DNA of 64,000 nt from the human T2T-CHM13v2.0 reference genome, Homo sapiens: NCBI RefSeq assembly GCF_009914755.1, contig NC_060928.1; one strand, 5' to 3'. The notes beneath the pieces are model-generated. The model was not told the DNA's origin. It did not search any database and was given only the letters and a program-made list of their open reading frames with translations. Shown here piece after piece: positions 3,237 through 39,014 of the stretch. Made by a program: the position numbers and the translations under genes. Position 1 is the first letter of the stretch. Every line of letters begins with the position of its first letter.

Positions 3237-3569
<333 letters not shown>

Positions 3570-3692
3570 GATTTGTTAGTAATTTTACATTCCGAATTCT
3601 TCTTTACAATATTTATTATTCCATTTATTCATTCAGTTATTTAGAATTGACTTTGAATGATAGAATTAAGAAGTAATATAAAAACTATAGAA

Positions 3693-26553: not shown

Positions 26554-26938
<385 letters not shown>

Positions 26939-27579
26939 TCAACATAGTAAACTTTTAACTTTAGTAAAAAGAAAGGGTGGTGAGATTGTGCAGTTCCTGT
27001 TTGTATGGCACCTTGCATTTGTCAAGCATGCTCATGGGTGCCCACACGCCCCGTGAGAAGGGCAGGGCAGGTGTCCCTGTTCTCACTGTCATCTGAAGAC
27101 TCAGCCTCAGAGAGGATGCCCGAATCCTTTGACACCATGCAGTCAGTAGCTGAGTCTTGAACCCCGGGCTTCTTCCCCCAGATCCCAGTGCACTTCCCAC
27201 CTCATCTCCTATTCTCCTCATGGGCTGTTCTACATGATGAACACAAGCCATAGAGAATTTCCTTCAGCAGCCTGCAAGCTGTACTATTTCTTCTCTCTCC
27301 CACCAGCAGTGAGACCTTAAAAGAAAGTCTTGTCTGAGAGACTAGTGCAGTAGCAGCCATGAAAACCTAGAGGAAGTGCCCACGTGTACGCGATTCCACT
27401 CAGCAGTTCTCCGCGTTTTCAGTTTTCCCTGTCTTGTCTCGCTCAGCCTTTTTAGACATTGTTGTCTTAATGGCCCCGCATAAAATGTTCACAGCACTGA
27501 TAACGTTCTGTGCATGTGCATCTACCACAGAAGACTGAAGGTTTGCCTGATGATTCCAGTGTGGGATTTTAAAAATGGA

Positions 27580-27850
27580 GGCCGGGCGCAGTGGCTCACA
27601 CCTGCAATCCCAGCACTTTGGGAGGCCGAAGCAGACAGATCACTTGAGGTCAGGAGTTCAAGACCAGCTGGCCAACGTAGCAAAACCCCATCTCTACTAA
27701 AAATTCAAAAACCAGCTGGGCGTGGTGACGAGCGCCTGCAGTTACAGCCACTGGGAGGCTGAGGCAGGAGGCGGAGGTTGCAGTGAGCCGAGATCGCCAC
27801 TGCACTCCAGCCTGGGTGACAAAGCGAGACTCTGTCTCGACAAAAAAAAA
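27580..27850 (+). mobile_element. Alu with internal deletions
   Basis: ggccgggcgcagtggctcac...poly(A). Confidence 0.88.
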
Positions 27851-27990: not shown

Positions 27991-28413
<423 letters not shown>

Positions 28414-28596: not shown

Positions 28597-28675
28597 GAGA
28601 CAGTGTTTCACAAAATGATTTTCCTTCTGAAGCTCCCATCTCCTTGAATCTTTCTCATAACATCTGCAATCCCAT
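28597..28675 (+). CDS. TMEM131L: TMEM131L coding exon J (79 nt)
   Basis: taatgcag|GAGAC...CCCAT|gtaagt; (G)[25 protein letters not shown](M). Confidence 0.9.
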
Positions 28676-28877: not shown

Positions 28878-29222
<345 letters not shown>

Positions 29223-29637
29223 ACACCTTATTTCTGAATATAGAAGGAGGAAGCAGTAGTTATTATAAAGATGGGAATCATTTACCCTTTGCTAGGCCTT
29301 GAAATAAAACTGAGCATTGATAATTGAGGAAATTTTGCAAGAACCTAGTAGATACATGTTTCCAGTTCTGCCCTATGATGATTTCTGCAGCACTGGACAA
29401 AATAAACAAGTACAATTTATTGAGTGAGAGACGAGGAGCGTGGGTAAGAAGGAGGAGAGTTCAGTGTGAGAAATGAACTTGGTTTCTTAGGTACCTCCCT
29501 CTTGGTAAGAGGACAAAGGATGCAGTTAAGAGGGTGAGTTTGTGAGGAAGGAAACTTGACTAGTGCACAGGAAAGCTCTTCATGGGTTTATTGGGGGTAG
29601 GTTGTCAGCAAAGGAGTAAGAGTTGCTGCTAACTGCT

Positions 29638-29731
29638 AGCCTAGGCACACTCCCCAGTCAGCCTCCTTCCCTTGGGCCACGCATCTCCCTTCTGTACTTT
29701 TCTGTCATCTCTGACTAGGGAAGGTGAACTA
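29638..29731. repeat. Left arm of 94-bp inverted repeat flanking exon K
   Basis: agcctaggcacactcccc...gggaaggtgaacta is the reverse complement of 30434-30527 at 92/94 positions. Confidence 0.97.
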
Positions 29732-30054
29732 CCTGGAAATACAGACAGGTGGCTACCTGTCTGAAAATCTACCTGACGGGTAGATTTAAAACCACAGGTT
29801 ACCTCATAGTTATGTTAGTTAATTTTTTTTGTTGTTGGTTATGACAAGACTTTGCTAGATTTGGGAATTTAATATTCCTCAATTCTTTTCTGGCTGTGTA
29901 ACTTTACATCCTTTATATCTGTATGTTTCTTCCCCAAGAAACTCTTCCCCAAGACTTCAATTGAGTGAAAACTCAATCAGACGTGGTTATACAATATCAG
30001 TATTTCCTCGTGCAGAAAAAATGAGTCGTTCCTCCTTTGCCCTCTTCCCCACAG

Positions 30055-30137
30055 GACCGTGAATAGTCTCCCACAATACGCAGAGCCTTCCTGTCCCAGC
30101 CTTCCTGCCGGGCCCACAGGTGTTGAAGAAGATAAAG
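30055..30137 (+). CDS. TMEM131L: TMEM131L coding exon K (83 nt)
   Basis: cttccccacag|GACCG...TAAAG|gtgaga; TVNSLPQYAEPSCPSLPAGPTGVEEDK. Confidence 0.9.
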
Positions 30138-30433
30138 GTGAGATGCATTCGTCTTGCTGCAGACATCAGCCAAGGGTTCTGTGCTGTCTGTATTCCTGGC
30201 TGATGAGTTTGAGAAGACAGAGCAGGCGGGGTGGGACAGGGCCATTTCCCCACCAGCCCCTTCTGCAAGCCACACGTTCATACATCAGGAAGGCACCTAC
30301 TCTGTGGACGGGCATCATTGGGGCCCCAGCTGACCTTGTGCATCAATAGTGAGCCCCTTCCCTACAGCTGAGGCACAGATGGCCTATGTCCTGGAATAAT
30401 CCCAGGCCCCTCACAGCAGACTCCTGATTCATT

Positions 30434-30527
30434 TAGTTCACCTTCCCTAGTCAGAGATGACAGAAAAGTACAGAAGGTAGATGCGTGGCCCAAGGGAAGG
30501 AGGCTGATTGGGGAGTGTGCCTAGGCT
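30434..30527. repeat. Right arm of 94-bp inverted repeat flanking exon K
   Basis: tagttcaccttccc...ggggagtgtgcctaggct; reverse complement of 29638-29731. Confidence 0.97.
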
Positions 30528-32424
30528 GAGGGTGCAGCACCTCACCTGCTTACCACTTTCCCTGGCCTGCTTCCCTTCCTCCCCAACTCACTTTGTGTTA
30601 GAAGCCTACTAATTCAGCCTCAGCAGCCTTGGGGACCCGCCTTGCTCAGGCATCAGTGCTGAGACCTTCTGCCTGCGGGGAAGGCAGTTGCCTAGGTGCA
30701 TGGAAGTAGGAATGGGTGGGAAGGAAACCTCTCCTGCCTGGGGGCTCTGATGGGAGGTGAATTCCAGTCCTCCCTCATTTTTCTTCTCTTTTCCTCCTCT
30801 TCTGCCTCTCTTTGTCTTTTGTTTTCTGTTTGATTCTAGGGCTTCTTTCTTGCCTAACGTGGGTCAGGAATTGTGGCAGGATAAACCTGATTTTTATTCT
30901 CTGTGTCTTTAATACACATACTTGCTTTTGGTCATAGAATTTAACACTGGATTTAAAAGCCGCTCTGCACATTGGAGAATTTTAACCCTTGAAGGTGAAA
31001 TACTTTATGTCGTTCCTTGGATGAATTTTGGACTTGTCCAGTTATCAACAGAAATAGCGAACCTAGTGACTAGTCCAGTAAAATAAGTGTTTTCAATTAA
31101 AAAAATCTAAAATTAAATAATCCATAGTTTGCAAAGGCAAGATGTGGGGGCGGTTTAGATGGTACTACCTTTTTTTCTGTGAGAGAAAGGTAGGATTTTA
31201 ATGGTGTGGAAAAATAAAAACTGTCAGAGCATCTACCCTTCAGCATGTGCCGTTCTGCTTTGCTATCAGTTGGAGATATACGTGCGGTTTGGTGTTCTAA
31301 CCCAGGTTTGTGTGTGTACTTCAAGTGCCTTTACCTTGGCCCCACTGACAGAGTACATCTTGTCTGCAGTCTGTTGCCTGCAAAGCTGTGGGCCCATCAC
31401 CTTTGTACTCCCTCACCTCCCTCACAGCCGTGTTTTCCTTCTTGCCCAGCTGAAATGGCCTGATCCATTGTTACAGTCATTTCCTCGACTCCTCTCCCTT
31501 TATTGCAAAGCCCCAGCCATGGTTTTGCCTAGTGCCCCACCTGCTCCTGTGCAGGCAAGTGAAGCTGGAGAGCAGCATTCCCCATGCCAGCTGCCCCTGT
31601 GGATTCCCCACCACCCACTTCACATAGTGCCTGTGTCCTCCCGCCCTGCCCCTCTGTCACCACAGTTCCAAAGCCTCATGCCTCGTTTACTTGATCTTGC
31701 TTCTTGCTTTACTAGAAGAGAGAGAAGTGGTTACAGGCCTTCAGCAAGCTCCCACTGCCCTCTCCACCAGCCCACCATGTCATGCCATTCTCTGCCTCTC
31801 TCCTGTTGTAGCCTGAAGAATTGTCAGTGCAGCCCTTCTCTCCAAGGGTATTACTGCAGATTTCCCTTCTGCATCATCAGTTTTTCTCTAATGGGTCATT
31901 TTCATCAGCACACAAATCTACTATAATACTTCCCGTCATTAAAAATTCAACAATAGCCAAAGCTCTCTCTTGACTGCCTTCTTCAGTGGCTGCCCTGTTT
32001 CTCTGCCCCTGTCATTAGGAGACTCCTTAGAAGAATTATGTGAGTTGCCCATTCAAATTCCTCTCCTCCCTGGAAACCCCTGTAATCTGGCTTTTGCCAC
32101 CATTGCTCTTTTGAAACCGTGCTGTCGGGGTCCCTGGTGATTTGCACATTGCTGAGTGCTTGGTTAAGTCTTTTCAGTCCCCATATTGGCCTGTGACAGA
32201 CACTGGACGTTCTATTCTGGCTGGTAGACCTTAGGTTCCTGACCCAGCTTCTCCCCATCTCCCCACCTCATGACCCTGGAGCCCTCCAGAGAGCAGGCCT
32301 TGGTGCTGTGCTTTTCTCTGTCTGTGCACACTTTCTTGGTGATCTCATCCACTTTCAAAGGTCTGAGTCTTTCTTTGACCCAGACAACTACCAAATGTAT
32401 ATGCAGGAGACATTCACTCTATTG

Positions 32425-34481: not shown

Positions 34482-34794
<313 letters not shown>

Positions 34795-35167: not shown

Positions 35168-35288
35168 GTCTTTACTCACCTGGAGACCTGTGGCCCACTC
35201 CGCCAGTGTGTGTGACAAGCAGCTTAAACTGCACCCTGGAGAACGGCGTGCCTTGTGTGATTCAGGAGTCGGCCCCGGTTCATAATAG
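35168..35288 (+). CDS. TMEM131L: TMEM131L coding exon L
   Basis: cttccgtag|GTCTT...AATAG|gtacag; (G)LYSPGDLWPTPPVCVTSSLNCTLENGVPCVIQESAPVHN. Confidence 0.9.
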
Positions 35289-35654: not shown

Positions 35655-35969
<315 letters not shown>

Positions 35970-38738: not shown

Positions 38739-39014
38739 CCCTACCTCACAAGCACCCGAAGCTTGTCTCCAATGTCTGGACTTTTTGGTTCCATCTGGGC
38801 CCCGCAAAGCGATGTGTATGAAAATTGCTGCCCCATCAACCCCACCACGGAACATTCGACCCACATGGAAAACCAAGCGGTCGTGTGCAAGGAATACTAC
38901 CTGGGGTTCAACCCGTTTCGCGCCTATATGAACCTGGACATATGGACTACCACAGCGAATAGGAATGCAAATTTCCCACTGTCTAGAGACTCGAGTTACT
39001 GTGGGAATGTGTGA
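38739..39014 (+). CDS. TMEM131L: TMEM131L terminal coding exon O
   Basis: long polypyrimidine tract, tacttcag|CCCTAC; [22 protein letters not shown]...[27 protein letters not shown] then TGA at 39012-39014. Confidence 0.93.

What the first reader, a model, noticed from the sequence alone, without database searches (positions are those of the whole stretch)
29638..30527. 94-bp near-perfect non-Alu inverted repeat enclosing one frame-shifting TMEM131L exon
Seen: 29638-29731 and 30434-30527 are reverse complements at 92/94 positions. In RNA one difference is a G-U wobble, so the stem has a single true mismatch. The 702-nt loop contains the whole 83-nt exon K (30055-30137) with its acceptor and donor. 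The arms are not Alu or any repeat I recognise. Worked out from sequence: skipping K joins J to L out of frame and hits TAA at 35283-35285, well upstream of the M/N and N/O junctions, so it would be an NMD substrate. Co-skipping J+K (162 nt) or K+L (204 nt) is in frame. Inference: this may be a pre-mRNA hairpin switch that loops out exon K (structure-controlled unproductive splicing), an ADAR substrate, or a substrate for a ~0.7-kb exon-inverting rearrangement. The high identity means either a recent template-switch duplication or arm homogenisation/selection.
Basis: partly seen in the sequence, partly recalled or inferred. Interest (0 to 1): 0.85.

Follow-up and report, generated by a model that had tools for sequence, protein, structure and literature searches.

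The report
Unique inverted repeat flanking TMEM131L exon
Two 94-base stretches that are almost exact reverse copies of each other sit in the introns on either side of one small coding exon of the human gene TMEM131L; they are real, found only here in the genome, and could fold the pre-mRNA into a long hairpin, but whether that changes splicing is untested.

Summary
Arms 29638-29731 and 30434-30527 are reverse complements at 92 of 94 positions. In sense RNA the two differences are one G-U wobble and one C-U mismatch. They enclose a 702-nt loop that carries the whole of exon 31 (30055-30137, 83 nt). Skipping this exon gives TAA at 35283-35285, while J+K or K+L co-skipping stays in frame.

The arm matches the genome only at these two places. 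Two masked repeats used as controls gave 14,387 and 6,475 first-look candidates. The arms end sharply. The predicted duplex is -198.6 kcal/mol.

My reading is a fairly young inverted duplication at a single locus, probably made by a replication template switch. It makes an intronic dsRNA that should be edited by ADAR and may cause some exon-31 skipping that ends in NMD, as a by-product rather than a proven switch. An 83-nt circular RNA is unlikely, because short exons circularise poorly.

I could not reach primate genomes, RNA-seq, editing tables or duplex maps, so age and function remain open. I found no paper that mentions this structure. It is a new member of a known kind, of moderate interest.

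The parts
29638..29731 (+). Arm 1 of the inverted repeat, in intron 30. It is pyrimidine-rich on the sense strand (63% C+T) and starts 962 nt after the exon J donor.
30434..30527 (+). Arm 2, in intron 31: the reverse complement of arm 1 at 92 of 94 positions. It is purine-rich on the sense strand and ends 4640 nt before the exon L acceptor.
29732..30433 (+). The 702-nt spacer, which is the loop of the predicted hairpin. It holds exon 31 with both of its splice sites.
30055..30137 (+). Exon K (exon 31 of NM_001131007.2), 83 nt, not a multiple of three. It has a long pyrimidine tract with AG at the acceptor and AAG|GTGAGA at the donor.
   Evidence: hub annotation
29657..29657 (+). G opposite T at 30508: a G-U wobble in the sense RNA.
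29687..29687 (+). C opposite T at 30478: the one true mismatch. It splits the stem into helices of 49 and 44 bp.
28597..28675 (+). Exon J (exon 30), 79 nt. J+K totals 162 nt, which is in frame.
35168..35288 (+). Exon L (exon 32), 121 nt. K+L totals 204 nt, which is in frame.
35283..35285 (+). The premature TAA reached when J is joined directly to L. Two exon junctions lie more than 55 nt downstream of it.
29742..29787 (+). Two perfect 9-bp hairpins with 4-nt and 5-nt loops (29742-29763 and 29765-29787), starting 11 nt after arm 1.

Best explanation
A 94-bp piece of TMEM131L intron was copied in reverse orientation to the other side of exon 31. The most likely cause is a template switch during DNA replication or repair, in the primate lineage. 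The point estimate from 2 differences in 94 is 10-21 million years, with a wide range of 1.3-77 million years. The result is a non-transposon inverted repeat found at this one locus.

When the gene is transcribed, arm 2 emerges about 0.9 kb after arm 1. The two arms can zip into a 94-bp duplex of 49 bp, one C-U mismatch and 44 bp, with a predicted energy of about -199 kcal/mol. This duplex holds exon 31 and both its splice sites in a 702-nt loop.

Expected consequences, in order of likelihood:
1. Promiscuous A-to-I editing of both arms by nuclear ADAR.
2. A minor, possibly variable fraction of transcripts in which exon 30 is spliced straight to exon 32. These carry a premature TAA and would be removed by NMD.
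3. Little or no 83-nt circular RNA.

I take any splicing effect to be a by-product of a young structural mutation that strong splice sites, co-transcriptional splicing and RNA helicases tolerate, not a selected regulatory switch.

Shown here: the anatomy, the uniqueness, the thermodynamics and the frame consequences. Inferred: the origin, the age, the editing and the size of any splicing effect.
For: - The repeat is real and far beyond chance.
- It is single-locus. The arm gave 2 first-look candidates and 2 matches in the 3.1-Gb assembly. Region 29250-30900 matched only itself and the two arms at E <= 10. Two masked repeats from the same window gave 14,387 and 6,475 candidates, with scored matches from 68% to 92% identity, the full-length ones mostly 72-88%.
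- Identity drops abruptly at all four arm ends. The only extension is a weak 18-nt outer one, roughly two-thirds matched. This fits the copying of one discrete segment.
- 98% identity between the arms contrasts with 73-88% for the other 13 inverted pairs of at least 60 nt in the window.
- In 200 kb of randomly drawn genome, no inverted pair of at least 40 nt and at least 90% identity within 3 kb was found, apart from one AT microsatellite.
- Template switching is documented to create new inverted repeats and to homogenise existing ones in human and ape genomes (passages, PMC5453318; PMC8794818).
- Two perfect 9-bp hairpins lie 11 nt from arm 1, against 13 distinct such hairpins in the whole 64 kb. 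This is what a locally switch-prone site would leave.
- The stem dominates the fold (z = -20). The duplex is -198.6 kcal/mol and stays at -165.8 even when every A is read as G.
- Exons looped out by complementary intronic pairs show lower inclusion, more so for stable pairs (passages, PMC8052449).
- Exon 31 has a long pyrimidine tract and an AAG|GTGAGA donor, which argues for mostly constitutive inclusion.
Against: - No outgroup genome was available, so neither the age, nor which arm is the copy, nor template switching itself has been demonstrated.
- Reported short-range template switches involve fragments of tens of bases close to their source. A 94-bp copy 702 bp away is larger and more distant than those.
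- I saw no microhomology at the arm ends (reading).
- High arm identity could instead reflect an old repeat kept alike by gene conversion or by selection for pairing, which would favour a functional reading.
- Loop-outs of exons are depleted genome-wide, and increasingly so for stable structures. An extremely stable loop-out of a frame-shifting coding exon is therefore not what neutrality alone predicts.
- No expression, editing or duplex data were examined, so the ranking of consequences rests on general knowledge.
Confidence: 0.5

Rival explanations
1. A selected hairpin switch. Pairing of the arms loops out exon 31, so that a regulated share of transcripts is frameshifted and destroyed by NMD. 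This would tune TMEM131L dosage, with ADAR, helicases or dsRNA-binding proteins setting the balance.
For: - The geometry is ideal. The arms sit 323 and 296 nt from the exon, and skipping the exon alone shifts the frame while co-skipping does not.
- The stem is extreme in stability.
- The sense RNA has one mismatch where the antisense RNA would have two.
- Looped-out exons have lower inclusion (PMC8052449).
- RNA-structure-controlled unproductive splicing is documented in other genes (BRD2/BRD3; abstract as listed, PMC10789245).
Against: - There is no evidence of skipping, regulation or conservation.
- The splice sites of exon 31 are strong.
- The 2% arm divergence fits a young neutral duplication.
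- Several RIC-seq-supported loop-out pairs showed no splicing effect when blocked (passage, PMC10573301).
- The gene is absent from the loop-out texts, and from the 3 supplement files held as text.
Confidence: 0.12
2. A driver of back-splicing. The flanking inverted repeat brings the exon 31 donor and acceptor together and yields a circular RNA, either directly or from an exon-containing lariat after skipping.
For: - Inverted repeats of 30-40 nt flanking an exon are sufficient for circularisation (abstract and passages, PMC4201285).
- This pair is 94 nt and lies within about 320 nt of both splice sites.
- An exonic circRNA from KIAA0922 appears in a microarray list, without coordinates (PMC7388456).
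Against: - ZKSCAN1 exons of 400 nt or less circularised poorly or not at all.
- Only laccase2 inserts of 300 nt or more circularised efficiently. Exon 31 is 83 nt.
- Increasing hairpin stability can inhibit circularisation.
- A search for circTMEM131L/circKIAA0922 names found one paper, seen as a listing only and on an unrelated topic.
Confidence: 0.06
3. Inert in RNA. The repeat is a neutral DNA scar. In cells, co-transcriptional splicing, hnRNP coating and helicases prevent the stem from forming or from mattering, so there is no measurable editing or splicing effect.
For: - Arm 1 is predicted to be occupied by other pairings before arm 2 is made.
- Exon 31 has strong splice sites.
- Intronic near-perfect inverted duplicates are tolerated in pre-mRNAs far more than in mRNAs (passages, PMC7006430).
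Against: - A duplex of -199 kcal/mol with a 702-nt loop should outcompete local structures.
- Complementary intronic regions are enriched in A-to-I sites (figure legend, PMC8052449).
- From general knowledge, long near-perfect duplexes are the preferred ADAR substrates.
Confidence: 0.25
4. Two copies of a transposable element or its terminal inverted repeats, or an assembly or individual-specific artefact.
For: None beyond the formal possibility. I had no repeat-family annotation for stretches under 100 nt, and only one assembly was available.
Against: - There are only 2 genomic matches, while control repeats give thousands of candidates.
- No target-site duplication is visible at the outer ends.
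- The spacer holds a coding exon of a gene whose family is conserved across animals (passage, PMC7015688).
- Two differences between the arms are not what a fold-back assembly artefact would give.
Confidence: 0.04

Closest known systems
Intronic complementary pairs that loop out an exon (inverted Alu pairs; pairs of conserved complementary regions, PCCRs, Kalmykova et al. 2021, PMC8052449)
   Same: Two complementary segments in the introns either side of an exon on the same pre-mRNA. The predicted effect is that the outer splice sites are brought together and inclusion of the enclosed exon falls.
   Different: The arms are neither Alu nor any detectable repeat. Conservation is unknown. At 94 bp, 98% identity and -199 kcal/mol it is far more perfect than the Alu-like pairs in the same window, which are 73-88%. 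No splicing effect has been measured.
Template-switch mutations that create perfect hairpins (four-point model, Loytynoja and Goldman 2017, PMC5453318; Monttinen and Loytynoja 2022, PMC8794818)
   Same: A reverse-complement copy of nearby sequence with sharp ends that creates a near-perfect stem in one step. The same process can also homogenise existing arms.
   Different: The described events are mostly tens of bases with the copy next to its source; the largest pattern mentioned in the rRNA study was 59 bp. Here the copy is 94 bp and lies 702 bp away. The ancestral state was not seen.
Flanking inverted repeats that promote exon circularisation (Liang and Wilusz 2014, PMC4201285)
   Same: A short inverted repeat close to both splice sites of one exon. 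30-40 nt is enough in minigenes.
   Different: The enclosed exon is 83 nt, well below the 300-500 nt needed for efficient circularisation in those systems.
Long, nearly perfect intramolecular dsRNAs that are ADAR substrates (Barak et al. 2020, PMC7006430; dsRNAscan preprint, PMC11838218)
   Same: A near-perfect inverted duplicate (over 96% identity) inside a pre-mRNA, lying in introns.
   Different: It is shorter than the 'long' class of over 300 bp treated there, it is not derived from mobile elements, and its editing status is unknown.

Membership tests
Exon loop-out RNA structure (intronic complementary pair) | Complementary segments in the two introns that flank an exon of one transcript | tested here: met
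   The arms are in introns 30 and 31, 323 nt upstream and 296 nt downstream of exon 31 (hub annotation).
Exon loop-out RNA structure (intronic complementary pair) | Thermodynamically stable pairing that dominates the local fold | tested here: met
   MFE and centroid both contain the full stem, z = -20.1. The duplex is -198.6 kcal/mol.
Exon loop-out RNA structure (intronic complementary pair) | Conservation or compensatory changes across species | not testable with these tools
Exon loop-out RNA structure (intronic complementary pair) | Exon inclusion changes when pairing is broken and is restored by compensatory mutations; duplex seen in vivo | not testable with these tools
   No RNA-seq, RIC-seq or PARIS data. 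The gene is not named in the texts of PMC8052449, PMC10573301 or PMC10691357, nor in the 3 supplement files of PMC8052449 held as text.
circRNA-promoting flanking inverted repeat | Inverted repeat of at least 30-40 nt close to both splice sites | tested here: met
   94-nt arms about 300 nt from each splice site. The criterion comes from PMC4201285.
circRNA-promoting flanking inverted repeat | Enclosed exon long enough to circularise (about 300 nt or more in tested systems) | tested here: not met
   Exon 31 is 83 nt.
circRNA-promoting flanking inverted repeat | Back-splice junction reads | not testable with these tools
   No circRNA database is held. The name search found nothing specific.
ADAR hyper-editing substrate | Intramolecular near-perfect duplex of several tens of base pairs | tested here: met
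   Helices of 49 and 44 bp separated by one mismatch, with 17 and 26 adenosines in the arms.
ADAR hyper-editing substrate | Clusters of A-to-G mismatches in RNA | not testable with these tools
   No editing table is held. A search for the gene names with dsRNA and A-to-I found only 2 papers, both about TMEM131 protein function.
Interspersed repeat / transposon terminal inverted repeats | Many copies elsewhere in the genome | tested here: not met
   2 matches for the arm and only self-matches for 29250-30900, against 14,387 and 6,475 candidates for control repeats.
Interspersed repeat / transposon terminal inverted repeats | Target-site duplication outside the arms | tested here: not met
   The bases outside 29638 and 30527 are not direct repeats of each other (reading).
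Template-switch mutation product | Reverse-complement copy of nearby sequence with abrupt ends | tested here: met
Template-switch mutation product | Derived state absent from an outgroup, with the source present | not testable with these tools
   No outgroup sequence is available.

The most novel reading that the evidence does not exclude
A single template-switch mutation in the ape or Old World monkey lineage created, in one step, a new RNA hairpin that converts a constitutive, frame-shifting exon of TMEM131L into an exon whose skipping sends transcripts to NMD. This unproductive-splicing valve would be sensitive to ADAR or helicase activity and would couple TMEM131L dosage (a Wnt antagonist in thymocytes, as stated in PMC9106294) to the cell's dsRNA-handling state. 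It would be a dated example of de novo birth of a splicing regulator from non-repeat DNA.
Probability: 0.1. Interest if true: 0.65.

Novelty: new member of a known kind. Interest (0 to 1): 0.4.

Why it matters
Exon loop-outs by intronic pairing are known, but nearly all human examples are either Alu pairs, which are imperfect and multi-copy, or short conserved pairs. This one is unique in the genome, near-perfect and very stable. It encloses a single strong exon whose loss shifts the frame, which makes it a clean natural test.

If exon 31 is still included at about 100%, it shows how well co-transcriptional splicing and helicases neutralise even a -199 kcal/mol loop-out. If exon 31 is skipped, it shows how one structural mutation can create unproductive splicing.

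The locus is also a likely non-Alu ADAR hyper-editing site. It could in principle support a 0.7-kb inversion that would remove exon 31 from the sense strand.

Tried and rejected
- **Rfam** scan of 29400-30800 at E <= 10: 11 matches, all far below their gathering scores (best 20.4 bits against 87). No known RNA family.
- **Tandem Repeats Finder** on 29500-30700: 0 rows.
- **Search for a more diverged, longer inverted repeat around the arms**: only an 18-nt weak outer extension and a 21-nt purine/pyrimidine-rich hit at E = 0.04. I take both as chance.
- **Third copies of the arm in the window**: none longer than 22 nt.
- **Which arm is the copy, from base composition**: contradictory. The GC content of the arms fits the arm 2 neighbourhood, but the strand skew does not. 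I dropped this.
- **Microhomology at the four junctions**: none seen by eye.
- **Soft-masking in window.fa**: the file is all upper case, so it gives no repeat information.
- **Background rate of such repeats**: only 200 kb of random genome could be drawn.
- **Literature**: my first search was too broad to be useful (25,547 papers). Later searches are. None of the papers I read names this structure. PMC11682891 holds the word circKIAA0922 once; I saw it as a listing only and did not read it.

Full report
**1. The observation**

The window sequence shows the two stretches as described. The repeat finder reports arms 29638-29731 and 30434-30527, 94 nt, 98% complementary, 702 nt apart. A base-by-base comparison gives 92 of 94. 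The two differences are:
- 29657 G opposite 30508 T, a G-U wobble in the sense RNA.
- 29687 C opposite 30478 T, a C-U mismatch.

The expected number of such pairs within 3 kb in 64 kb of random sequence is about 2e-44. In the whole window, 14 inverted pairs of at least 60 nt lie within 3 kb of each other. This is the only one above 88% complementarity; the other 13 are 73-88% and sit on stretches the hub lists as masked repeats.

**2. Gene context and frame**

I used the hub's exon table and the reading frame that is open up to the annotated TGA at 39012-39014. The results are all:
- Skipping exon K (30055-30137, 83 nt; exon 31 of 35) gives TAA at 35283-35285.
- Skipping J+K (162 nt) or K+L (204 nt) keeps the normal stop.
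- The premature stop lies 3 nt before the end of exon L, but two further junctions lie more than 55 nt downstream. By the usual rule, which is general knowledge, the transcript is NMD-eligible.

The exon has a long pyrimidine tract before its AG and an AAG|GTGAGA donor. By comparison with the consensus, recalled rather than scored, both sites look strong.

The distances are:

| From | To | nt |
|---|---|---|
| J donor | arm 1 | 962 |
| arm 1 | K acceptor | 323 |
| K donor | arm 2 | 296 |
| arm 2 | L acceptor | 4640 |

**3. It is not a repeat family**

- The 94-nt arm, searched against the 3.1-Gb assembly that holds the window, gave 2 first-look candidates and 2 matches: itself and the other arm.
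- The 1651-nt region 29250-30900 at E <= 10 gave only itself and the two arm cross-matches.
- The tool warns that very common words are skipped, so I ran two positive controls with stretches the hub lists as masked. Region 2182-2852 gave 14,387 candidates, of which 40 were scored, and 53 matches. Identities ran from 68% to 92%, and the near-full-length matches other than the self-match were 72-79%.
- Region 3267-3579 gave 6,475 candidates and 41 matches. The near-full-length matches other than the self-match were 85-88% identical.

The search therefore does see interspersed repeats, and the arms are not one, at least at this sensitivity. Very old, highly diverged families cannot be excluded. 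They could not in any case explain 98% identity between the two arms.

**4. Boundaries**

A permissive blastn of the left half against the right half extends the match by only 18 nt on the outer side (29620-29637 with 30528-30543). That extension adds 5 mismatches and one gap opening. It does not extend at all on the inner side. No target-site duplication and no microhomology is visible at the ends. No tandem repeat and no Rfam family lies in the region.

**5. Background rate**

I drew 20 random 10-kb stretches of the same assembly.

In these 200 kb, a self-blast found no inverted pair of at least 40 nt and at least 90% identity within 3 kb, apart from one AT microsatellite. In the 64-kb window the only such pair is this one. 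The sample is small and bounds the rate only to fewer than roughly 15 per Mb.

**6. RNA structure**

- The fold of 29600-30560 gives -433.2 kcal/mol against -296.4 ± 6.8 for 20 shuffles (z = -20.1). The full stem is present in both the MFE and the centroid.
- The two arms alone co-fold at -198.6 kcal/mol as 49 bp, one mismatch and 44 bp. Each arm alone folds at only -21.5 or -23.6 kcal/mol.
- Before arm 2 exists, arm 1 is predicted to pair with purine-rich stretches of the downstream intron at 30206-30221 and 30363-30386. These pairings are much weaker.
- As a crude stand-in for inosine, I read adenosines as G. The duplex falls only to -184.6 kcal/mol at 50% and -165.8 kcal/mol at 100%. Editing alone would therefore not melt it in this approximation, although I-U pairs are weaker than G-U pairs.

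**7. Origin and age (inference)**

A discrete 94-bp reverse-complement copy, with sharp ends, at one locus, is what a template switch in replication or repair produces. The four-point model paper describes event types that create inverted repeats, and also the classic conversion of near-perfect into perfect repeats (passages, PMC5453318). A later paper shows that perfect stems can be created in one event (passages, PMC8794818).

The described events are smaller and closer to their source than this one. I count that against simple membership of the family.

Two perfect 9-bp hairpins lie 11 nt beyond arm 1 (29742-29763 and 29765-29787). Only 13 distinct hairpins of that kind occur in the 64 kb, many of them AT-rich. 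This post-hoc clustering is weak support for a site prone to such switches.

From 2 differences in 94, and per-lineage rates of 0.5-1e-9 per year (recalled), the arms separated 10-21 million years ago, with a Poisson range of 1.3-77 million years. Error-prone synthesis at birth would make it younger. Gene conversion would make it older.

**8. Likely function**

What is shown is anatomy and thermodynamics. What follows rests on published generalities.
- Complementary pairs that loop out exons are depleted, and the exons they enclose have lower inclusion. Both effects are stronger for more stable pairs. Complementary regions are also enriched in A-to-I sites (passages and legends, PMC8052449).
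- Several loop-out pairs with RIC-seq support had no splicing effect when blocked with oligonucleotides (passage, PMC10573301).
- Near-perfect inverted duplicates are strongly depleted from mRNAs but much less so from pre-mRNAs (passages, PMC7006430).

With strong splice sites on exon 31, I therefore expect editing of the arms and at most a minor fraction of skipped, NMD-bound transcripts. I rate a selected switch at about 0.12.

Repeats of 30-40 nt suffice (PMC4201285). However, exons of 400 nt or less (ZKSCAN1) or under 300 nt (laccase2) circularise poorly, and exon 31 is 83 nt. I rate it at about 0.06.

**9. What is in print**

- Searches for the gene names with circRNA names found one paper, seen only as a listing.
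- Searches with dsRNA and A-to-I found 2 papers, both about protein function.
- Searches with alternative splicing and NMD found 3 papers. I read a passage of one, which was irrelevant.
- One microarray list names an exonic KIAA0922 circRNA without coordinates.
- The gene is not named in the main texts of PMC7006430, PMC11838218, PMC8052449, PMC10573301 or PMC10691357. It is also not in the 3 supplement files of PMC8052449 that are held as text.
- The large data files of these studies (Zenodo and track hubs), the supplements of the other four papers and of the bioRxiv preprints, and editing databases were not visible to me. They may list this pair.

**10. Gene consequence**

Exon 31 encodes part of the cytoplasmic C-terminal region. 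A frameshift there removes about 197 residues, since the stop comes after codon 705 instead of 902 of the part of the protein encoded in the window.

In the paralogue TMEM131, the extreme C-terminus binds TRAPPC8 (passages, PMC7015688). Whether this holds for TMEM131L was not shown there.

**11. Verdict**

The structure is real, unique in the genome and unusually perfect. It belongs to a known kind, intronic pairing around an exon, with a plausible known origin in template switching. No functional or evolutionary evidence could be gathered here.

- Interest: 0.4.
- Novelty: new member of a known kind.

Noticed in passing
window 29742-29763 and 29765-29787: Two perfect 9-bp hairpins with 4-nt and 5-nt loops lie back to back, 11 nt after arm 1. 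Only 13 distinct hairpins of this kind occur in the 64 kb, many of them AT-rich. A third short palindrome of related sequence follows at about 29795-29803.
   Followed up: partly
window 34601-34754 / 35685-35838; also 26559-26833 / 28111-28385 and 26743-26869 / 28923-29049: Exon L (35168-35288) is itself flanked by an inverted pair of masked repeats at 77% complementarity, and further inverted pairs lie upstream of and around exon J. I take them to be Alu from memory of the sequence, not from a tool. These pairs could compete with or add to the exon 31 hairpin.
   Followed up: no
window 30938-30994: The 57-nt alternative exon of other transcripts lies 411 nt after arm 2, outside the loop. It is in frame and open, adding 19 residues, and it has an AG acceptor and a GT donor.
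   Followed up: partly
window 27531-27596: This alternative exon has an in-frame TGA at 27536-27538 and no GT after its annotated end. It runs into a sequence that I recognise from memory as the start of an Alu, so it is probably part of an alternative terminal exon.
   Followed up: no
window 29673-29716 with 30206-30221 and 30363-30386: Before arm 2 is transcribed, the pyrimidine-rich arm 1 is predicted to pair with purine-rich stretches just downstream of exon 31. These weaker pairings would also enclose the exon.
   Followed up: no
window 29620-29637 with 30528-30543: A weak outer extension of the inverted repeat, with 5 mismatches and one gap opening over the 18 nt. It may be chance, or the remnant of an older and longer pairing.
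   Followed up: partly
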